Positions 19,363-63,799 of a DNA stretch of 64,000 nt are shown here, in pieces (within the stretch, counting starts at the first letter, position 1; each line of letters starts with the position of its first letter). The notes below the pieces were generated by a model. The model made no database searches. It was not told the DNA's origin and saw only the letters and a list, made by a program, of their open reading frames with translations. Both the position numbers and the translations under genes were made by a program. Source of the stretch: Candidatus Doudnabacteria bacterium RIFCSPHIGHO2_12_FULL_48_16 (GTDB lineage Bacteria; Patescibacteriota; Doudnabacteria; UBA920; O2-02-FULL-48-8); the NCBI GenBank assembly GCA_001780035.1, contig MFEY01000007.1, forward strand, positions 331,146 through 395,145, read 5' to 3'.

Positions 19363-19392
19363 TTACTCCCCCGTTGACTCTCTTCTGACGCA

Positions 19393-19420
19393 CCCCCTCT
19401 TATATTAAGAGGGGGTTTTA
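19393..19420 (+). terminator. tyrS intrinsic terminator (CCCCCTCTTA-tat-TAAGAGGGGG + TTTTA), followed by a second similar hairpin at 19437-19457
   Basis: 10-bp GC-rich stem with a T-run, 31 nt after the tyrS stop. Confidence 0.6.
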
Positions 19421-19471
19421 GATTGCTTATTTACTCCTCCCCTTAGAATAAGGGGAGGGTGGGAGGGGTTA

Positions 19472-19500
19472 TTGACCTTGGGTCTTAAAACTGCTATCTT
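19472..19500 (+). promoter_or_regulatory. Sigma-70-like promoter candidate (TTGACC-17-TATCTT) driving the GC-rich island
   Basis: TTGACC at 19472, a 17-nt spacer, then TATCTT at 19495. Confidence 0.4.
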
Positions 19501-19561
19501 AATGAGCTTACTTGACCGGGCGAATCCGGTCCGTATGGCGACGAAAGGCAGCAGGGGGAAA

Positions 19562-19826
19562 AATGAAGAACGCAGGAGCAAAGCGACAGACCGGTGGCGA
19601 GAGCGGAACCGATCGGCCATCGCGTCGCCGCACGCCGACCGAGCGCATGCCGACGCGGGAGCCGGGCACGGGCGGCGACGCGGATGACCAGGGCGGTCAG
19701 TCCGATCGCCCGGCGTGGGACACGCCGACCGACCGCTTGCCCACGAGCGACCCGCCGCCGGCCGATGAAGCGGATACGGCCGACGCGGCGCCCGATCGCG
19801 GACAGGCCACCACGGCGATCGCGTAG
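19562..19826 (+). CDS. Hypothetical intrinsically disordered, Pro/Asp/Arg/Thr-rich small protein inside a ~70% GC island
   Basis: 87-aa ORF MKNAGAKRQTGGESGTDRPSRRRTPTERMPTREPG...PTDRLPTSDPPPADEADTADAAPDRGQATTAIA. It has a GGGGG Shine-Dalgarno 5 nt upstream, its own promoter and its own terminator. Coding status is uncertain, because all three forward frames are open. Confidence 0.3.
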
Positions 19827-19917
19827 AACGCGACGCGGACAACCAGATGGACCGGGTGTGCAGTGACAGTGCACATCCCGGTCTTTTTTTATTCCGACCT
19901 CGACAAAGTCGAGCGTC

Positions 19918-19950
19918 GGAACTCCGACCGAAGCGTCGGAGTTTTCTTAT
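19918..19950 (+). terminator. Intrinsic terminator closing the GC-rich island (AACTCCGAC-cgaagc-GTCGGAGTT + TTTCTT)
   Basis: 9-bp stem with a T-rich tail on the plus strand only. It overlaps the ruvC stop. Confidence 0.45.
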
Positions 19951-20411
19951 CGTCCGATTCCAGACCAGGCGATCGCGCACGCATCTGCGGCATCATCGGG
20001 TTTGGGAATTTTTTTCAGTTTCAAAAGTTTGACGATCATGGTCTGCACTTGTTTTTTGTCCGCCTTGCCATAGCCGGTCGTGGACATTTTGACTTGCAAC
20101 GGCGTGACTTCAATCATTTTGAGTCCGGCTTCAGCCAAAGTTACCATGACCATGCCCCGCGCCTGCCCGACGGTCATCGCGGTTTTGACATTGGTTTCGA
20201 AAAACAACGATTCGATGCAGGCGCTGTCCGGTTTTAATTTTTTGATTAAGGTGGTTAAATCTTTTTTGATTTCCAAAAGCCGGGCCGGCTCGGCCGTCCC
20301 CGCCTTGGTCGTGATACAGCCGCATTCCAGCAAAGAAGTTTCCTTGCCAGTATGTTTGAGGAATGCATAGCCGGTGCGCGCTATCCCTGGATCAATTCCT
20401 AGTATGATCAT
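19947..20411 (-). CDS. ruvC: Crossover junction endodeoxyribonuclease RuvC
   Basis: MIILGIDPGIARTGYAFL... with the RNase H-like catalytic acidic residues. Confidence 0.9.
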   Translation of the reverse strand: MIILGIDPGIARTGYAFLKHTGKETSLLECGCITTKAGTAEPARLLEIKKDLTTLIKKLKPDSACIESLFFETNVKTAMTVGQARGMVMVTLAEAGLKMIEVTPLQVKMSTTGYGKADKKQVQTMIVKLLKLKKIPKPDDAADACAIAWSGIGR

Positions 20412-21124
20412 AAATTTACGTTACTATGAACCGCCACGACATCATCGTCTTCATTCAGCGCATCGAGTAGAGTTTGAATTTTGATAGCATCATCCAGAGC
20501 GACTTCCACTGATTGCTGCGGGCGCATAATAAGCTCGCTCGAAAGCGTTTTTATCCCCTTGGCCTCGATAAACTTTTTGGTTTTTTCCAGGTCCATCGGC
20601 AGAGTGTAAATTTCCAATCCTTCTGGCGTTTCTTTCACGTCTTCGACTCCTTGGTCAATCAATTCCAGAGGTAAATCCTCGGCGCCCTTCTGCTTCTCCA
20701 CCAGGATCTGGCCTTTGGACTCAAACATCCAAGCGACGCTGCCCTGCTCCCCCAGGCGGCCGTTATTTTTCGTAAAGATGTTGCGAACGCTTTGGAGTGT
20801 GCGATTGGTGTTATCAGTCACGGTTTCTACAATCAGGGCCGAGCCGGCGGGTCCATATCCTTCATAGGTAGCTTGCTGGATGCTTTCTTTGCCTTCGCCT
20901 TTGCCGCGCGCAATCGCGCGTTCCACATTTTCCTTGGGCATGCCGACTTCCTTGGCTTTATCCATGGCCATACGCAACTGAAAATTAAACGTCGGGTCAG
21001 CCCCGCCTCCGGTGCGCACCGCCACCGTGATGTTTTTGGCAATTTTAGTAAAAGCCTTGCCCTTGCGAGCATCCGTGATTGTCTTGGCCCGTTTGATTGT
21101 ATTCCATTTACTGTGTCCACTCAT
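20408..21124 (-). CDS. yebC: YebC/PmpR family DNA-binding transcriptional regulator
   Basis: MSGHSKWNTIKRAKTITDARKGKAFTKIAKNITVAVRTGG is the canonical YebC N-terminus. Confidence 0.9.
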   Translation of the reverse strand: MSGHSKWNTIKRAKTITDARKGKAFTKIAKNITVAVRTGGGADPTFNFQLRMAMDKAKEVGMPKENVERAIARGKGEGKESIQQATYEGYGPAGSALIVETVTDNTNRTLQSVRNIFTKNNGRLGEQGSVAWMFESKGQILVEKQKGAEDLPLELIDQGVEDVKETPEGLEIYTLPMDLEKTKKFIEAKGIKTLSSELIMRPQQSVEVALDDAIKIQTLLDALNEDDDVVAVHSNVNL

Positions 21125-21899: not shown

Positions 21900-21940
21900 C
21901 CCCTCTCCTGACTAGGAGAGGGGCCGGGGGTGAGGTTAGC
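21900..21940. repeat. Copy A of a ~40-nt palindromic repeat (CCCCTCTCCT-gact-AGGAGAGGGG + CCGGGGGTGAGGT)
   Basis: Inverted-orientation copy of the element at 56381-56416: the 10-bp stem sequence is identical and the flank is about 90% identical. Confidence 0.45.
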
Positions 21941-26362: not shown

Positions 26363-28822
26363 TTATATCAATGCGGTGGAGGCAACTTTGTCGCCGGCAT
26401 CCAGAGTCATAATTTTGACGCCCTGGGTGGCGCGGCCGAGGGTGGAGATCTTACCCACCGGCGTGCGCAGCGCCTGGCCGAGTTTGGACAGCACCACCAG
26501 GTCATGCTCTTCGGATTTGTCGATCACATGCAGGCTGACAATTTTGCCGGTCTTAGGGGTGACTTTCAGCGTCTTGATGCCGGAGCCGCCGCGGTGTTGT
26601 TTTTTGTAGAATTTCAAGTCGGTTTTTTTGCCCAGGCCGTTTTCCGTCACAATCAGCAGCTGGATGTTGTCGAGGCTTTCTTTCTTGCTGACTAGGTCCA
26701 TGCTGATCACGACGTCGTCCTTTTTAAGGCGCATGCCTTTGACCCCGGAGGCGGTGCGGCCCATGGGCCGGGCATCTTTTTCGTCGAAGCGGATGGCCTG
26801 GCCGTTGGCCGTGGTGAAAATCACGTCATCTGTGCCGGCGGAAGATTTGACCCAGCGCAGCTCGTCGCCGGGTTTGATTTTGATGGCAATCAGGCCGCTG
26901 CGGCGGACTTTGACGAACTCCTCAATTGGCGTTTTTTTGATCAAGCCTTTTTTCGTGGCCAGGACCAGGAATTTGGCCGCGGTTTTTTTGGAAATCGTCA
27001 GTACGGCCGAGACCAGCTCGTCGCTGGGCAGATCGAGGAAATTGACCAAAGCCTGGCCGCGCGCGGTGCGCGAGGCTTCTGGCAGCTCATATACTTTGGT
27101 GGCAAAAACTCGGCCCTTGGTTGTAAAGAACAGGATGTCGTCGTGGGTGTTGGTGGTCTTGAGCCATTCAACCACGTCCTCTTCTTTGGTCGCCATGCCG
27201 ATCACGCCCTTGCCGCCGCGGCCCTGGGATTTGTAAGTATCCGTCGGCAGGCGCTTGACATAGCCGGATTTAGTGATAATCACAATCGCCTGCTCTTCCG
27301 GAATCAGGTCTTCCGCCTTGAATTCGCCGATCGGCTGTTTGACCAAGACGGTCTTGCGCGGGTTGCCATATTTGTCCTTCAGTTCCAGCAGTTCGGTTTT
27401 GACCACGCCGCGGATCTTTTTCTCGCTTTTGAGCAGCGTTTCCAGCTCTTCGATCAGCTTCATTTTTTCTTTCAGTTCGTCATCAACTTTTTTGCGCTCC
27501 AGACCCGCTAACGCGCGCAGCTGCATTTGTAAAATTGCCGTCGCCTGTTTGTCCGACAGCTTGAATTTGCTCATCAGGCTGGCGTGGGCCTCTTCGGTCG
27601 TGTCGGATTTGCGGATGGTGGCAATGACGGCGTCGATATGGTCGAGGGCTTTTTTCAACCCCTCCAGAATATGCGCCCGGTCTTTGGCCTTGTTCAGATC
27701 GAACACGGTCCGGCGCGTAATAATCTGGATCCGATGTTTAATGTAATATTCCAAAGTGTTCTTCAGATTCAAAACCTGGGGCTCAATGCCATCCACCAGG
27801 GCCAGCATGTTGACGTGGAATGTTTCCTGCAGCTGGGAGAATTTAAACAGTTGGTTGAGAATTTTGTTCGGCAGGGCTTCTTTTTTCATTTCGACCACGA
27901 TCCGGACGCCGTCCTTGTCGGATTCGTCGCGCAGGTCCCGGATACCTTCGATTTTTTTGTCCTTGACCAGTTCGGCGAATTTTTCCAGCAGCGTGGCTTT
28001 GTTGACCTGGTAAGGAATTTCAGTAATTAAAATTTTGTGCATCCCCTTTTCTTCCACGATTTCGGTTTTGGCCCGCATGACGATCGGCCCCTTGCCCGTG
28101 GCATAGACTTGCTTGATCGTATTCCAGTCATAGATAAAGCCGCCGGTTGGGAAATCCGGGCCCTTTACAAATTCCAGCAATTCTTCGGTGGTGGTCGCCG
28201 GCTCTTCGATCAGTTTGACGGTGGCATCCACGATTTCACCTAAATTGTGCGGCGGGATATTGGTGGCCATGCCGACCGCGATCCCCAGGGTGCCGTTAAG
28301 CAGCAAGTTTGGGGCTTTGGCCGGCAGCACGCGCGGCTCCTGCCTGGTAGCGTCATAGTTTTCCATCCAGTCCACGGTGTCTTTGTCGAGGTCGGAGAGC
28401 ATCTCTTCGGCCAGGGCCATCATCCGCGCTTCGGTGTAACGCATGGCTGCGGGCGCGTCGCCATCCATGGAGCCGAAGTTGCCTTGGCCGTCGATCAGCG
28501 GATAGCGCATGGCAAACTCTTGGGCGAGGCGCACCAAAGAATCATATACGGCCACGTCGCCGTGCGGATGGTATTTGGCCAGCACTTCGCCAACAACTGC
28601 CGCGGATTTGCGGAATTTGGCGTTGTTGCGCAGGCCTAGCTCGTTCATGGCATAGAGAATCCGCCGGTGCACCGGCTTTAACCCATCCCGGACATCGGGC
28701 AGGGCGCGGGAAACGATCACGCTCATCGCGTAATCGAGATAAGATTCTTCCATTTCGCGTTCGATAGAGCGCGAGTTGACAGAGCCGATATTGGTGTTGG
28801 CCGCGGTTTTAATTTCGGACAT
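26363..28822 (-). CDS. gyrA: DNA gyrase subunit A
   Basis: [59 protein letters not shown], including the active-site Tyr region and the C-terminal beta-pinwheel repeats. The ATG at 28822 is preferred over the TTG at 28846. Confidence 0.95.
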
Positions 28823-32006: not shown

Positions 32007-32131
32007 TTAGGATTTGTGGGGGTAATCTCAGCAGAACCGTATCAAATTTAAACTGTCGGGTCAATGCTAACATGTGGATTGTCTGTGCAGAATAAGATAT
32101 AATATTTGGAGTTTGCGGTTCAATATGGGAT

Positions 32132-32161
32132 GGCGTCATGGCCGAGCGGTTAGGCAGAGGT
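32132..32161 (+). other. 5' half of a second tRNA-Cys-like gene (acceptor GGCGTCA + D-arm), separated from its 3' half
   Basis: GGCGTCATGGCCGAGCGGTTAGGCAGAGGT: the D-arm and anticodon-stem 5' strand are identical to tRNA-Cys at 32213. The acceptor strand pairs perfectly with TGACGCC at 32334. Confidence 0.4.
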
Positions 32162-32212
32162 TAAGTCTGCCCCGACGCTTCGGCCGGGGTTCCGACCCAA
32201 AATTTTGGACTT

Positions 32213-43356: not shown

Positions 43357-43551
43357 ATGAAAGCCAGATTTTTCTTCGTCAGATCCGCGACCAGGCCGGA
43401 TCGCCTCAACAAGTTCCTGGCCTCGGTCAAAGTCACCCAGGTTCTTCAGAGTTCGGCCGCGCATACCAATTTCAATTTGGCGTCCGCGGTAATTCCCAAC
43501 CCCTTGGACATGTTGACTCAGATCACGGTTCTTTACGAACCAAAGGAGTAG
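43357..43551 (+). CDS. Hypothetical small protein with S4-like RNA-binding motif (RPDRLNKFLA)
   Basis: 64 aa with an AGGAGG Shine-Dalgarno 7 nt upstream. It is the first gene of a compact three-ORF module. Confidence 0.4.
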   Translation: MKARFFFVRSATRPDRLNKFLASVKVTQVLQSSAAHTNFNLASAVIPNPLDMLTQITVLYEPKE

Positions 43552-43553
43552 TT

Positions 43554-43682
43554 GTGCAGAACAAGCAAATTGCGGCGAGAGTGCGGCGTGAACTGCGGAT
43601 CTGGTGGCTGCAGCAGTCCATTGAGGACTTGTTGTCCGGCCGCCGCCCGGTCAGCTTCCAGAAGTTCCTGGGAGGTGCGTAA
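43554..43682 (+). CDS. Hypothetical 42-aa protein (GTG start), translationally coupled
   Basis: AAGGAG Shine-Dalgarno 6 nt before the GTG. Its stop overlaps the next ATG (TAATG). Confidence 0.25.
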   Translation: MQNKQIAARVRRELRIWWLQQSIEDLLSGRRPVSFQKFLGGA

Positions 43683-44008
43683 TGGATCCCGGAATTACGC
43701 AGGCATTGCTCAGGCGGCATTTGCGCCTGAACGTTCCGCAGCAGCAGGTCAGCTATCACATCGAAGAGCAGATCCGAAATACTGCCGCTGACATTCCGGT
43801 GATGATTTTTACCGATGGCATCTTGATCCGTGTTGATAAGGCCGACCACCAGATCCGCGAAGCGAGGGTTTCGTTCCAGAGCCTGATTGAGGCCCTGGTG
43901 AAGGACGGCGCGGCGGTTAAGCAGCACGCCAAGTTTCACGGGATGGAGATCGACGAGATCTGCCACATCGTCATCGACGGCGAGGAGGTGCAGCTCTGGC
44001 TCACCTGA
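43682..44008 (+). CDS. Hypothetical 108-aa protein
   Basis: GGAGGTG Shine-Dalgarno. MDPGITQALLRRHLRLNVPQQQVSYHIEEQIRN.... It is followed by a strong terminator. Confidence 0.45.
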   Translation: MDPGITQALLRRHLRLNVPQQQVSYHIEEQIRNTAADIPVMIFTDGILIRVDKADHQIREARVSFQSLIEALVKDGAAVKQHAKFHGMEIDEICHIVIDGEEVQLWLT

Positions 44009-46938: not shown

Positions 46939-47187
46939 ATGACGCCAAGAATCGTCGTGGCCAAGGGAGCGGGGTTGATCCGGCAATACGCGCAGCTGCG
47001 TTCCCGCTGGGATCGTGAAGCCTGGCTTGCCAAGGCTGAGCGGGCCGTCAGCTTGTGCACAAGAGATGAAGAAGAAAGGCTCCTGGCCATGATCCGTCTC
47101 ACGCAATATGCGCTGGGACAGGGGAGCCCTTACCCGGATAATAAAGAAGGAGGAGACCATGGGACGAAGGGAGGAGGTTCTCGCTGA
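46939..47187 (+). CDS. Hypothetical 82-aa protein in a GC-rich patch
   Basis: Strong AGGAGGT Shine-Dalgarno 6 nt upstream: MTPRIVVAKGAGLIRQYAQLRSRWDREAWLAKAER.... Confidence 0.4.
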   Translation: MTPRIVVAKGAGLIRQYAQLRSRWDREAWLAKAERAVSLCTRDEEERLLAMIRLTQYALGQGSPYPDNKEGGDHGTKGGGSR

Positions 47188-47413
47188 TGCAATTGCGGCG
47201 CTTAATCGAGCCGCCTGGGCTCTGAATGAGCCTTGGTCAGAGCAGAGTGCGCGCCGCAATCAGGACACTCTCGCCGCCATTTGTCGCGCCTTGCCGTATT
47301 GTCAAGGGCAGTGGTCGAGCCGCTTGCCTGGCCATTTCCAGGCCGCGGCCGAGGCTATGAAACAAAAGCTTCTGGCGCGCTTGGCCCAGCCGGGGACACT
47401 CAAGGAGCGTTGA
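47159..47413 (+). CDS. Hypothetical 84-aa protein, overlapping the previous ORF out of frame
   Basis: AAGGAGGAG Shine-Dalgarno immediately before the ATG: MGRREEVLADAIAALNRAAWALNEPWSEQSARRNQDTLAAICRALPYC.... Confidence 0.4.
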   Translation: MGRREEVLADAIAALNRAAWALNEPWSEQSARRNQDTLAAICRALPYCQGQWSSRLPGHFQAAAEAMKQKLLARLAQPGTLKER

Positions 47414-54523: not shown

Positions 54524-54808
54524 TCATTGCGACTTGCTTTGATAGAAGTTATCCACTATTTCGGCGGCGCCAAAAAGATCACCAATTAGAGATCTCACCT
54601 TATAGTCGTTAAGTTGTTGTCCTTCGAGGTCCATCTTCCGTAGAATCAATTGAACGTAGTCCAGCAGTTTTTCTCTTGCTTCGGGGCTGAGATTCCTAAT
54701 TGCCCAGCTCGGAATATCCTCGTCCGTAAGTGTAATTATTCTTTTCAATTGAACCTCCAAAAAAGATAGGGCAAGCCTTGCGACTCGCCCTGGTCCCCAT
54801 TCAATCAC
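54524..54808 (-). CDS. Hypothetical protein
   Basis: 94-aa ORF co-directional with the secreted protein upstream. The start is uncertain. Confidence 0.35.
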   Translation of the reverse strand: MIEWGPGRVARLALSFLEVQLKRIITLTDEDIPSWAIRNLSPEAREKLLDYVQLILRKMDLEGQQLNDYKVRSLIGDLFGAAEIVDNFYQSKSQ

Positions 54809-55398
54809 TTGCCGGGCTTATACACGACATAGGTCCGGACCACGACGTTGCCATGGATATTCTTGAAGGCCGTCGTGGCAATGTTCGTGCCCTTAAGCTT
54901 GGGAACTTTGACGCTGGCGCGCAGGCCGACCCCTGTAGTGGTTTTGGCCGGCTTGCCGTGAGCCTTGTCCTCAAACACCACGACCTGCTCGTATTCAACT
55001 CCGACGCGCCAGCCCAGGGTGTCCGAGGTTACTGGGACCGTCACGAACCCGCTCATCAGCGCTAGATTGCTCCGTAGCTGAAACTCGGTGTAGAGATCGG
55101 TGCGCCGGCTTTTGGCGTAAGACCGGAAGTTGGCCACGGGTTTGACCACACCGTCAGTGCCGATCACGGAGCCGAACATGACTTCTTTCCAGCCCCGGTC
55201 GTCGCGGGTAAGGTACCCCGCGACCAAAAGCAGTTGCCGCGGCGTGCGCGTGGCGTCAGGCACAATGACCCAGCCGGCCAAGTGGCCCGCCTGCCAGTGG
55301 AGCAGGGGTCGGAACTGATAATCATTCGGCGGCGTCTGCGCGGTAACAAGAGAGGGGAGAACGAGCACGGCACATGCGGCCAGAATCAGGTGCTTCAT
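54805..55398 (-). CDS. Hypothetical secreted protein (signal peptide MKHLILAACAVLVLPSLVTAQ)
   Basis: GC-rich. Signal peptide followed by a beta-rich domain. The start was trimmed to MKHLIL. Confidence 0.45.
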   Translation of the reverse strand: MKHLILAACAVLVLPSLVTAQTPPNDYQFRPLLHWQAGHLAGWVIVPDATRTPRQLLLVAGYLTRDDRGWKEVMFGSVIGTDGVVKPVANFRSYAKSRRTDLYTEFQLRSNLALMSGFVTVPVTSDTLGWRVGVEYEQVVVFEDKAHGKPAKTTTGVGLRASVKVPKLKGTNIATTAFKNIHGNVVVRTYVVYKPGK

Positions 55399-56330: not shown

Positions 56331-56380
56331 GCTTGATTTTTATCTGAAATTTTGTCATAATAGTTTGATTCTAGTGACGA

Positions 56381-56416
56381 CCTCACCCCTGGCCCCTCTC
56401 CTCGCCAGGAGAGGGG
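56381..56416. repeat. Copy B of the ~40-nt palindromic repeat (ACCTCACCCCTGG + CCCCTCTCCT-cgcc-AGGAGAGGGG)
   Basis: See 21900-21940. It lies in the spacer upstream of infB. Confidence 0.45.
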
Positions 56417-62809: not shown

Positions 62810-63799
62810 ATGGAAATTCAGGAAAATAAGGGCGAAATTATCATTTATAAGGCTGAATCAGGCCCAGAACTTCAAGTTAAACTTGAAGACGAAACTATTT
62901 GGCTTAATCAAGCCGAAATTGCCAGCCTTTTTGACACTGACCGTAGTTCTATAGCAAAACACATAAAAAATCTAATAAAATCAGGGGAATTAGAAGAAAA
63001 AAGCAATGTGCAAAATTTGCACATTGCAAATTCAGACAAACCGGTTAAGTTTTATAATCTAGATTTTATCTTATCCGTTGGTTATCGAGTAAATTCAAAG
63101 AGAGCTACCCAATTCCGTATTTGGGCCACTAAACACCTTCGGGATTATCTTTTGAAAGGCTATCTTGTCAATGAAAAGCGGCTAAAAGAGAATGAGGAAA
63201 TTAAGCTCAAGGAACTCCAGGCGGCTGTGGGACTCATGCAGCAGGCGCTGGAAGTCAAAAGACTTGAAGGTTATGAGAAAGAATTACTCAATATCATTAC
63301 GGATTATGCCAATACCTGGCTGACGTTTTATCAATTTGATGCCGGTCAGTTGCCGCTTCAGGGCAGCAAGAAGTCGGCAAAGTATTTGGAATACGATCAA
63401 ATCAAAAAAGCGATTATACGATTCAAACAACGGTTGCTGAAAAACGAAGAGGCCAGCGAATTGTTTGCTCAGGAAGTTTCGGAAAAATTGCTTTCACTGC
63501 TCGGTAATATCAAGCAGAGCTTGGGCGGGCAGGATGTTTATCCGACGCTGGAAGAAAAAGCCGCCCATCTGTTATACTTCGCGGTCAAAAATCATCCGTT
63601 CGTGGACGGCAACAAGCGGATCGGAGCGCTGCTGTTTATCTTGTTTCTGGTCGAGAATAATTATCTGCACAACAAAAAAGGCGAACGCAAGATCAATGAC
63701 GCGGCGCTGACTGCCGTTACTTTGTTGGTGGCGGAATCCAAACCGCAGCAGAAAGAGGTTATGATCAAGCTGATCGTTAACTTGATCAATAAAAAATAA
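62810..63799 (+). CDS. Fic-domain protein of the RhuM family
   Basis: RhuM-like N-terminus (...ATQFRIWATKHLRDYLLKGYLVNEKRLK...) and a C-terminal Fic motif HPFVDGNKRIGALLF. Confidence 0.8.
   Translation: MEIQENKGEIIIYKAESGPELQVKLEDETIWLNQAEIASLFDTDRSSIAKHIKNLIKSGELEEKSNVQNLHIANSDKPVKFYNLDFILSVGYRVNSKRATQFRIWATKHLRDYLLKGYLVNEKRLKENEEIKLKELQAAVGLMQQALEVKRLEGYEKELLNIITDYANTWLTFYQFDAGQLPLQGSKKSAKYLEYDQIKKAIIRFKQRLLKNEEASELFAQEVSEKLLSLLGNIKQSLGGQDVYPTLEEKAAHLLYFAVKNHPFVDGNKRIGALLFILFLVENNYLHNKKGERKINDAALTAVTLLVAESKPQQKEVMIKLIVNLINKK

What the first reader, a model, noticed from the sequence alone, without database searches (positions are those of the whole stretch)
19460..19950. Compositionally foreign ~70% GC island with its own promoter, strong SD and terminator, encoding an 87-aa disordered Pro/Asp/Arg-rich ORFan (or a GC-rich ncRNA)
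The segment lies between the tyrS terminator and ruvC and is far more GC-rich than the rest of the window. It contains:
- a TTGACC-17-TATCTT promoter at 19472;
- a GGGGG Shine-Dalgarno 5 nt before the ATG at 19562;
- an 87-aa ORF of low complexity with internally repeated peptide and nucleotide units (CACGCCGACCGAGCGCATGCCGACGCGGGAGCC at 19630, and again with variation at 19713);
- two stable hairpins at 19894-19919 and 19918-19950, the latter followed by a plus-strand T-run.

All three forward frames and one reverse frame stay open across it, which is a hallmark of extreme GC content rather than proof of coding. Neighbouring genes mostly lack strong SD sequences. So this unit looks horizontally acquired, or could be a structured RNA.
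Basis: seen in the sequence. Interest (0 to 1): 0.6.

Follow-up and report, generated by a model that had tools for sequence, protein, structure and literature searches.

The report
GC-rich orphan micro-gene between tyrS and ruvC
The GC-rich patch is most likely a small, self-contained gene for an 87-residue disordered acidic protein with no relatives anywhere, sitting in a spot between two housekeeping genes where related bacteria carry other small fast-changing genes; it is an unusually clean orphan gene, not a new kind of system.

Summary
Window 19589-19838 is 76% GC against a 48% mean, the most extreme 250-nt stretch in 64 kb.

It is not an assembly artefact. More than 20 independently assembled contigs carry it, always between tyrS and ruvC.

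No RNA family matches it. The ORF has no homolog among about 15 billion proteins.

The genome is Candidatus Doudnabacteria (CPR). Five relatives have tyrS directly abutting ruvC, with gaps of 33-152 nt. Eight others fill the gap with different small, acidic, Pfam-less ORFs on the tyrS strand. All have GGAGG and nearly all a TTGnnn-17-TAnnnT promoter, whereas core genes almost never have an SD (4/55).

So this is an insertion hotspot that holds fast-evolving micro-genes.

About two thirds of the GC excess follows from the Ala/Thr/Asp/Pro/Gly/Arg-rich sequence, which was built by tandem duplication of a ~90-nt unit. The rest is a real GC3 excess.

Horizontal origin is possible but no donor was found. 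The structured-RNA reading is not supported. Function is unknown.

The parts
19392..19420 (+). tyrS intrinsic terminator: 11-bp hairpin plus TTTT
   Evidence: -18.4 kcal/mol, z = -5.0. T-run length varies by 1 between assemblies.
19436..19471 (+). Second hairpin (CCTCCCCTTA/TAAGGGGAGG) with a G-rich tail GTGGGAGGGGTTAT. It is a recurrent intergenic palindromic element, not part of the GC island.
   Evidence: -19.1 kcal/mol. Similar elements lie at 21900-21935 and 56380-56416 and after tyrS in L015 and L017.
19472..19500 (+). Sigma-70-type promoter-like site TTGACC-17-TATCTT with extended -10 TG
   Evidence: The same TTGnnn-17-TAnnnT(+TG) layout lies 20-62 nt before the ATG of slot ORFs in 7 of 8 relatives that have one. 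A 9-nt duplication of TGCTATCTT in one assembly (L003) leaves the first copy intact.
19514..19531 (+). Small hairpin in the inferred 5' UTR (GACCGG-GCGAAT-CCGGTC)
   Evidence: -11.2 kcal/mol, z = -1.9; weak
19553..19558 (+). Shine-Dalgarno-like AGGGGG, 4 nt before the ATG
   Evidence: SD motifs are rare in this genome (4/55) but present before every slot ORF in relatives.
19563..19826 (+). 87-aa ORF (stop codon included). The protein has a basic head (residues 1-33, net +5) and an acidic tail (34-87, net -9). pI is 4.65. 77% of residues are A/T/D/P/G/R. It is predicted disordered.
   Evidence: Called as a gene on 21 contigs. GC1/2/3 = 0.72/0.68/0.81.
19602..19694 (+). Repeat unit 1 (93 nt; encodes SGTDRPSRRRTPTERMPTREPG...)
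19695..19784 (+). Repeat unit 2 (90 nt; encodes GQSDRPAWDTPTDRLPTSDPP...). It differs from unit 1 by one in-frame codon and by E/D, M/L and synonymous Pro changes.
19785..19846 (+). Partial, rearranged third copy of the unit. It spans the last codons, the stop codon and the start of the 3' UTR.
   Evidence: (families D3, D4, D6)
19848..19892 (+). Intrinsic terminator of the ORF: 14-bp interrupted stem plus T7, 22 nt after the stop codon
   Evidence: -24.8 kcal/mol, z = -5.7
19893..19940 (.). Two adjacent hairpins that share the stem TCCGAC/GTCGGA, directly after the ruvC stop codon (19947-19949 on the minus strand). Probably the 3' end structure of ruvC.
   Evidence: 2 matches against 0.07 expected; -31.7 and -33.0 kcal/mol on the two strands

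Best explanation
The segment is a monocistronic micro-gene.

Inferred transcription and translation:
- An extended -10 sigma-70-type promoter (19472-19500) starts a transcript near 19507.
- A leader of about 55 nt carries an AGGGGG Shine-Dalgarno.
- The ATG at 19563 opens an 87-codon frame.
- A hairpin plus T7 at 19848-19892 ends the transcript.

The product is a 9-kDa cytoplasmic protein that is intrinsically disordered. It has a basic N-terminal third and an acidic Pro/Thr/Asp-rich tail that contains two ~30-residue repeats.

The unit occupies an insertion hotspot between the convergent tyrS and ruvC genes. That site is empty in the more distant Doudnabacteria. In the closer clade it holds a changing set of small, acidic, SD-led orphan genes on the same strand.

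The extreme GC is mainly a by-product of the low-complexity A/T/D/P/G/R sequence, amplified by tandem duplication of a ~90-nt unit. A smaller, real excess of G/C-ending (NCG) codons adds to it.

Shown: anatomy, uniqueness, insertion status, shared slot architecture.
Inferred: that it is transcribed and translated, and that it shares its origin with the other slot genes.
Not known: the cellular role. The best guess is an accessory, rapidly evolving binding or regulatory peptide.
For: Signals line up in the right order and at the right spacing.

The ORF frame is the one with GC3>GC1>GC2. It is the only long frame that is not Arg-dominated.

The repeat copies differ by a whole codon and by E/D, M/L and synonymous Pro changes.

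The island is identical in more than 20 contigs from separate assemblies, including two NCBI MAGs, always in the same context.

The slot is empty in L007, L019, L020, L109 and L110 (gaps 33-152 nt). It is filled in L008, L009, L015, L016, L017, L018, L022 and L023 with 74-183-aa Pfam-less ORFs. These ORFs are on the tyrS strand and GC-elevated; those checked are mostly acidic.

All of these ORFs have GGAGG, and 7 of 8 have the same promoter layout.

Some slot ORFs are homologous to each other, so the slot has a shared history. L016 and L018 share an N-terminus. L009, L023 and L018 share a '..IIDEACG..PP' motif.

Host codon usage alone would give 0.68 GC for this protein.
Against: There is no evidence of expression.

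There is no homolog, so there is no conservation test.

An 87-codon open frame is not significant at 74% GC, and two other frames on each strand are also largely open.

The repeat-based frame test only weakly favours this frame (BLOSUM 52 against 47 for frame +1).

The ORF is not detectably related to the other slot genes (hhalign probability 0.1%).

GC3 of 0.805 exceeds every host gene of at least 200 aa (maximum 0.765). It is 3.4 sd above the expectation from host codon usage. This fits foreign DNA at least as well as native DNA.
Confidence: 0.55

Rival explanations
1. The whole unit, or its GC-rich body, was recently captured by horizontal transfer from a high-GC, SD-using donor. The donor could be a host bacterium or its phage, and the DNA landed in a permissive convergent-terminator gap.
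For: The slot is empty in the nearest neighbour on the TyrS tree (L007) and in outgroups. GC3 of 0.805 is 3.4 sd above the host-codon expectation, and the NCG-codon preference differs from the host's. The gene is SD-led in a genome where 4/55 genes have an SD, and the other SD-led genes in the window are mostly orphans or mobile-type such as RhuM/Fic.
Against: No donor was found. Nothing turned up in about 15 billion proteins, in phage or plasmid DNA or in viral contigs. There is no integrase, tRNA, direct-repeat scar or second copy in the window. The UTRs are only 55-57% GC. Relatives have the same promoter, SD and orientation layout in the slot, which argues for shared descent.
Confidence: 0.22
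2. It is a decaying or frameshift-split descendant of the slot gene family seen in L009 and L023. On this reading the N-terminus is encoded upstream in frame 2 from TTG 19472 (…KGSRGK), and the C-terminus in the 87-aa frame (DEADTADAAP against DEACGAEAAP). The two would be joined at the G5A5 run at 19554-19563. The result is either a pseudogene or a gene read through by a +1 shift.
For: tblastn of L009_78 and P0128 against the gap gives two colinear weak matches, E 0.03-0.07 in a 584-nt database. GGAGG lies 5 nt before TTG 19472. The 9-nt polymorphism in L003 is a multiple of three.
Against: A family profile scores the frame-2 segment at E = 52, no better than background in the 64-kb six-frame set. 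Smith-Waterman ranks are only 22-50 of 2330. The GGAGG before the TTG belongs to the recurrent hairpin/G-tail element. The TTG coincides with the -35 box of a promoter layout shared with relatives.
Confidence: 0.1
3. It is a GC-rich structured non-coding RNA of about 380 nt, running from the promoter to the terminator.
For: It has its own promoter-like site and terminator. Several inverted repeats are present, including a 14-nt, 93%-complementary pair at 19621/19669 and a 13-nt pair near the two ends. The MFE z-score is -2.1 on the plus strand.
Against: There is no Rfam family, even at E<=10 or at gathering threshold on the whole window. The z-score is modest and is better on the wrong strand. 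The main hairpin of unit 1 is not reproduced in unit 2, whereas the peptide motif is. SD and ATG sit at canonical spacing. No homologs exist to test covariation.
Confidence: 0.05
4. It is an assembly chimera or contaminant joined into the contig.
For: Abrupt GC change.
Against: The sequence and junctions are identical in contigs from many independent assemblies (ENA, JGI, Logan, two NCBI MAGs). Some of these contigs span from PBP1A to yebC.
Confidence: 0.01

Closest known systems
Taxonomically restricted (orphan) small-protein genes in genomic hotspots between conserved convergent genes
   Same: It has no homologs. It is short, disordered and low-complexity. It lies at a site that differs between close relatives while the flanking core genes stay syntenic. 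It has its own expression signals.
   Different: The GC contrast is extreme (76% against 48%). Its translation signal (SD) is one the core genes of this genome almost never use. It was built from a ~90-nt tandem duplication.
The small slot proteins of related Doudnabacteria (L009_78/P0128, L023_82, L018_183, L016_79, L017_113; all unannotated hypothetical proteins)
   Same: Same position and same strand. Same promoter and SD layout. Similar size and acidity (pI 4.3-5.5 for most). GC is above the genome mean. L018_183 also has a long Pro/Asp-rich disordered tail.
   Different: No detectable sequence relationship (hhalign probability 0.1%). The window protein lacks the N-terminal helical segment and the 'IIDEACG' motif.
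Pro-Thr-Asp (PTD) repeat hypervariable gene of a Gracilibacterium (PMC6851277, abstract)
   Same: A CPR genome with a locally exceptional repeat-built coding region rich in Pro, Thr and Asp.
   Different: [quoted passage not shown] Here there are two and a half ~90-nt units in an 87-aa gene that is invariant across all sampled contigs.
Classical horizontally acquired genomic islets
   Same: Atypical composition, absence from relatives, and an insertion between conserved genes.
   Different: No mobility gene, no tRNA or repeat boundary, and no identifiable donor. Most of the compositional anomaly is explained by amino-acid content.

Membership tests
Any described structured RNA family (Rfam 15) | Covariance-model match at or near the gathering score | tested here: not met
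   The best hits are 15-19 bits against thresholds of 40-100, and all lie on terminator hairpins. The whole-window gathering scan finds only tRNAs.
Structured ncRNA in general | Folding energy well below shuffles, and structure conserved between copies or homologs | tested here: inconclusive
   z = -2.1 (+) and -2.9 (-). The hairpin of unit 1 is not conserved in unit 2 (direct reading). No homologs are available for a covariation test.
Protein-coding gene | Start codon with ribosome-binding site, open frame, terminator | tested here: met
Protein-coding gene | Codon-periodic conservation in homologs or purifying selection in populations | not testable with these tools
   No homolog exists. All sampled contigs are identical in the ORF. 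The internal-repeat comparison only weakly favours the frame.
Doudnabacteria tyrS/ruvC slot protein family (alignment A2) | Sequence or profile similarity to L009_78, L023_82, L018_183, L016_79 or L017_113 | tested here: not met
   hhalign probability 0.1%. blastp gives only compositional matches to the L018 tail. The profile search of 5.8 G proteins returns only the family's own members plus P0128.
Doudnabacteria tyrS/ruvC slot protein family (alignment A2) | Same locus, strand and promoter/SD architecture | tested here: met
Horizontally transferred island | Absent from the orthologous site in relatives | tested here: met
   tyrS and ruvC are 33-152 nt apart in L007, L019, L020, L109 and L110.
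Horizontally transferred island | Composition or codon usage not explainable by the encoded protein | tested here: inconclusive
   Expected GC with host codons is 0.679±0.018 against 0.739 observed. GC3 is 0.636±0.049 expected against 0.805 observed. Host genes themselves range up to GC3 0.765.
Horizontally transferred island | Identifiable donor homolog or mobility signature (integrase, tRNA target, flanking repeats, other copies) | tested here: not met
Diversity-generating retroelement template/variable repeat pair | Mismatches confined to adenines of one copy | tested here: not met
   Only 3 (copy 1) or 5 (copy 2) of 19 mismatches involve A. 10 of 19 are G<->C. The companion feature, a reverse transcriptase nearby, was not searched for.
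MITE/IS-type mobile element | Terminal inverted repeats and further copies in the genome | tested here: not met
   No second copy in the 64-kb window. Only weak 13-nt end complementarity (I7). The rest of the genome was not searched.

The most novel reading that the evidence does not exclude
The ORF is the extreme member of a distinct class. This CPR genome's core genes are SD-less and often leaderless-like, yet a scattered set of small orphan genes is GC-elevated, driven by an extended -10 promoter and led by a strong SD. Examples are this one and those at 43357-44008, 46939-47413 and 54805-55398. In this reading they form a separate translational and evolutionary compartment. That compartment would be either a nursery of newly born or repeat-expanded genes, or imports from the (unknown) higher-GC host. 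tyrS|ruvC would be a recurrent landing site across the clade.
Probability: 0.2. Interest if true: 0.6.

Novelty: new member of a known kind. Interest (0 to 1): 0.3.

Why it matters
It is a clean, well-bounded example of an orphan gene in a candidate-phyla-radiation bacterium. The empty ancestral site, the variable occupants in sister species and the internal duplication history are all visible. The contrast between SD-led accessory micro-genes and SD-less core genes could be used to flag recently gained genes in such genomes, and perhaps to trace their source. On its own it does not reveal a new mechanism.

Tried and rejected
1. Known RNA families: nothing found.

2. Homologs of the 87-aa protein:
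- word-indexed search of 5.8 G clusters
- full HMMER scan of 1.84 G representatives
- Pfam, PHROGs, PADLOC, NCBIfam
- viral contigs
The only hits were the protein itself and a compositional hit to a 4917-aa cadherin-like repeat protein.

3. DNA similarity to phages, plasmids and viral contigs: only chance 40-55-nt matches.

4. Closer relatives for a conservation test: none exist in the databases. TyrS identities jump from 100% to 79%. The metagenome scan added only 72-77% relatives.

5. Frameshifted-ortholog idea. Eye-catching KGSRGK and DEA..AAP matches appeared. They did not survive a profile test (E = 52) or a rank test. I kept this only as a low-probability rival.

6. Link between the ruvC-side hairpins and other loci (32172-32196, 28381-28396): chance or partial matches only.

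7. DGR, MITE and chimera readings: rejected.

8. Minus-strand ORFs of 126 and 191 aa: Arg-rich shadows of the GC-rich stretch. No Pfam match for the 126-aa one (the 191-aa one was not scanned), and both run through the terminators.

Full report
**What is there**

The window comes from Candidatus Doudnabacteria bacterium RIFCSPLOWO2_02_FULL_49_13, a member of the candidate phyla radiation (source names).

Gene layout around the finding:
- tyrS runs 18169/18211-19362 on the plus strand.
- ruvC (19947-20411) and yebC (20408-21124) run towards it on the minus strand.

The 584-nt gap between tyrS and ruvC contains the most GC-rich 250 nt of the whole 64-kb window. It is 0.76 GC at 19589-19838, z = 3.97 against a mean of 0.479, and the runner-up is 0.656.

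Reading the gap 5' to 3':
- The tyrS terminator hairpin with a T-run (19392-19420).
- A second hairpin with a G-rich tail (19436-19471).
- A promoter-like TTGACC-17-TATCTT with an extended -10 TG (19472-19500).
- A weak hairpin (19514-19531).
- AGGGGG four bases before an ATG at 19563.
- An 87-codon frame ending at 19826.
- A strong hairpin plus T7 at 19848-19892.
- Two hairpins with the same stem, TCCGAC/GTCGGA (19893-19940), abutting the ruvC stop codon.

**Is it real DNA of this organism?**

Yes.
- The exact RuvC protein is found on 22 contigs and the exact 87-aa protein on 21 contigs. These come from ENA, JGI, Logan and two NCBI MAGs.
- In every case the order is PBP1A, tyrS, ORF, ruvC, yebC.
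- Six gaps aligned to the window are identical through the whole GC-rich part.
- The only differences are a 1-nt change in the tyrS terminator T-run and a 9-nt duplication of TGCTATCTT at the -10 box in one contig.

A chimera is excluded as far as assemblies can show. The element is single-copy in the window.

**RNA or protein?**

Evidence on the RNA side:
- No Rfam family comes near threshold.
- The 396-nt transcript-sized stretch folds only 2.1 sd better than shuffles on the plus strand and 2.9 sd better on the minus strand.

The GC-rich body consists of two ~90-nt units and a rearranged partial third (19602-19694, 19695-19784, 19785-19846).
- The best internal hairpin of unit 1 (19621-19634 with 19669-19682) has no counterpart in unit 2.
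- In the ORF frame the units read SGTDRPSRRRTPTERMPTREP and GQSDRPAWDTPTDRLPTSDP.
- They differ by one whole codon, three E/D changes, one M/L change and a synonymous Pro.

This favours a coding history, but only weakly in numbers. The BLOSUM score is 52 in this frame against 47 in the +1 frame.

Other points for the ORF frame:
- It has GC3>GC1>GC2 (0.81/0.72/0.68).
- It is the only long frame that is not dominated by Arg.

An 87-codon open frame is not in itself significant at this GC. Two forward and two reverse frames are open across the core.

The AlphaFold single-sequence model has no secondary structure (pLDDT 61, pTM 0.12). That fits a disordered chain. The chain has a basic head (net +5 in residues 1-33) and an acidic tail (net -9), and its pI is 4.65.

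**Relatives of the protein**

None were found.
- The word-indexed search of 5.8 billion clusters returns only the protein itself.
- The exhaustive HMMER scan of 1.84 billion representatives returns the protein itself plus a compositional hit to a 4917-aa cadherin-like repeat protein.
- Pfam, PHROGs, PADLOC and NCBIfam give nothing.
- Phage and plasmid DNA and viral contigs give nothing meaningful.

**The locus in relatives**

This was the most informative step. No genome between 79% and 100% TyrS identity exists in the databases. About a dozen Doudnabacteria at 72-79% TyrS identity, and two at 55-57%, keep the order tyrS then ruvC-yebC facing it.

Empty sites:
- In the two distant genomes the gap is 33 and 54 nt (L109, L110).
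- In three of the closer genomes it is 87, 111 and 152 nt with no ORF (L007, L019, L020).

Filled sites, in eight other species:

| Locus | ORFs in the gap |
|---|---|
| L016 | 79 aa |
| L023 | 82/90 aa |
| L022 | 82 aa, membrane protein |
| L008 = L021 | 94 aa, plus a PspC-domain gene on the other strand |
| L015 | 74 + 93 aa, overlapping |
| L009 | 78/103 + 82 aa |
| L017 | 113 aa |
| L018 | 183 aa |

Shared properties of the filled sites:
- All the non-PspC ORFs are on the tyrS strand.
- All those scanned lack Pfam hits.
- All are more GC-rich than their locus (0.475-0.62 against 0.42-0.51).
- Most of those checked are acidic (pI 4.3-5.5).
- Each has GGAGG 4-8 nt before the ATG.
- Seven of eight have a TTGnnn-17-TAnnnT site, in most with a TG extension, 20-62 nt upstream.

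Some are related to one another:
- L016 and L018 share an N-terminus (36% over 44 aa).
- L009, P0128, L023 and L018 share '..IIDEACG..PP'.

A profile of these proteins finds nothing else among 5.8 billion proteins.

A TyrS tree is star-like, with empty and filled sites interspersed. The window's nearest neighbour on it (L007) is empty.

But the site is a hotspot with a history shared across the clade, not a one-off insertion. The window's protein itself is not detectably a member of the slot family (hhalign probability 0.1%).

**How foreign is the composition?**

- The 42 ORFs of at least 200 aa in the window have GC1/2/3 of 0.54/0.37/0.55. GC3 has an sd of 0.12 and a maximum of 0.765.
- Re-encoding the 87-aa protein with host codon frequencies gives 0.679±0.018 GC and 0.636±0.049 GC3.
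- The observed values are 0.739 and 0.805.

So roughly two thirds of the excess over the genome mean comes from the amino-acid content, which is 77% A/T/D/P/G/R. The remainder is a real preference for G/C-ending codons, especially NCG, about 3.4 sd above expectation. The inferred UTRs are 55-57% GC.

- Only 4 of 55 larger ORFs in the window have an SD-like motif.
- Only 1 of 41 core ORFs in relatives has one.
- Many tyrS genes have TATAAT about 8-10 nt before the ATG, which suggests leaderless or near-leaderless messages.
- A published survey found the anti-SD motif in only 48% of Parcubacteria 16S genes (PMC9297842).

The few SD-led ORFs in the window are mostly small, GC-elevated and Pfam-less:
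- 43357-44008
- 46939-47413, an overlapping pair with its own promoter-like site
- 54805-55398

One more is mobile-type, the RhuM/Fic gene at 62810-63799. Two of these coincide with other top-GC windows. The finding is therefore the extreme of a class of accessory genes.

**Best explanation and rivals**

I rate a real, self-contained orphan micro-gene in a clade-wide hotspot at 0.55. On this reading its GC is largely a consequence of a repeat-built low-complexity sequence.

Recent horizontal capture from a high-GC donor is the main rival (0.22).
- For it: the GC3 excess, the SD, and the empty site in the nearest relative.
- Against it: no donor, no mobility signature, and the slot architecture shared with relatives.

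A frameshift-split descendant of the L009/L023-type slot gene looked attractive by eye. KGSRGK lies upstream in another frame and DEADTADAAP lies in the ORF frame, with a G5A5 run at the junction. But a family profile scores the segment at E = 52, and Smith-Waterman ranks are only 22-50 of 2330 six-frame segments. I give it 0.10.

Structured RNA gets 0.05 and chimera 0.01.

The cellular role is unknown. The committed inference is an accessory, fast-evolving disordered binding or regulatory peptide. Nothing here tests that.

**Novelty**

This is a new member of a known kind, namely lineage-restricted orphan small genes at variable sites. The loosest literature parallel is the Pro-Thr-Asp repeat hypervariable gene of a Gracilibacterium (PMC6851277). 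It differs in scale and in being variable within a population.

The more interesting, unproven reading is that SD-led, GC-rich micro-genes form a separate compartment in SD-less CPR genomes.

Noticed in passing
whole window; L007-L023: Core genes almost never have a Shine-Dalgarno motif: 4/55 in the window and 1/41 in relatives. Several, for example tyrS in L008, L009, L015, L016 and L023, have TATAAT about 8-10 nt before the ATG, which suggests leaderless or near-leaderless mRNAs.
   Followed up: partly
window 46939-47187 and 47159-47413 (+): An overlapping pair of SD-led, Pfam-less small ORFs (82 and 84 aa, GC 0.59 and 0.62) with a TTGAGT-N-TATCAT promoter-like site upstream. It lies just before tRNA-Pro. 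The architecture matches the tyrS/ruvC slot genes, and it coincides with one of the top-GC windows.
   Followed up: partly
window 43357-44008 (+) and 54805-55398 (-): Further SD-led, GC-elevated ORFs. One group is a run of three small ORFs (64, 42 and 108 aa). The other is a 197-aa ORF whose N-terminus looks like a signal peptide. The 64-, 108- and 197-aa ORFs were scanned and have no Pfam match.
   Followed up: partly
window 21900-21935 and 56380-56416; also 19436-19471; L015 and L017 after tyrS: A recurrent intergenic palindromic element. It is a hairpin CCCCTCTCC-loop-GGAGAGGGG joined to a GGGGGTGAGG-type tail (or its complement), in either orientation. 4 matches to the core pattern against 0.65 expected.
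   Followed up: partly
window 32130-32200 (+): A tRNA-like stretch directly upstream of tRNA-Cys that repeats its 5' half (tggccgagcggttaggcagaggt). Neither ARAGORN nor Rfam calls it.
   Followed up: no
L003 (equivalent to window ~19492-19500); L002/L006 (window ~19417): These are the only population differences in the gap. One is a 9-nt tandem duplication of TGCTATCTT, which is the extended -10 box. The other is a 1-nt length change in the tyrS terminator T-run.
   Followed up: yes
L008 5633-5842 (-) = L021 4064-4273 (-): In one relative the slot also holds a 69-aa PspC-domain membrane protein on the ruvC strand (Pfam E = 4e-26). So the hotspot accepts unrelated cargo.
   Followed up: yes
window 19629-19688 vs 19719-19778: Ten of the 19 differences between the two repeat copies are G<->C transversions. 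This is an unusual spectrum that preserves GC content.
   Followed up: no
window 62810-63799 (+): An SD-led 329-aa ORF with RhuM and Fic/DOC domains (Pfam E = 3e-22 and 5e-13). It is typical of mobile or accessory DNA and lies at the low-GC end of the window.
   Followed up: no
L109 6920-7167 onward: The GyrA homolog of a more distant Doudnabacterium is 1202 aa and carries an intein-splicing domain.
   Followed up: no
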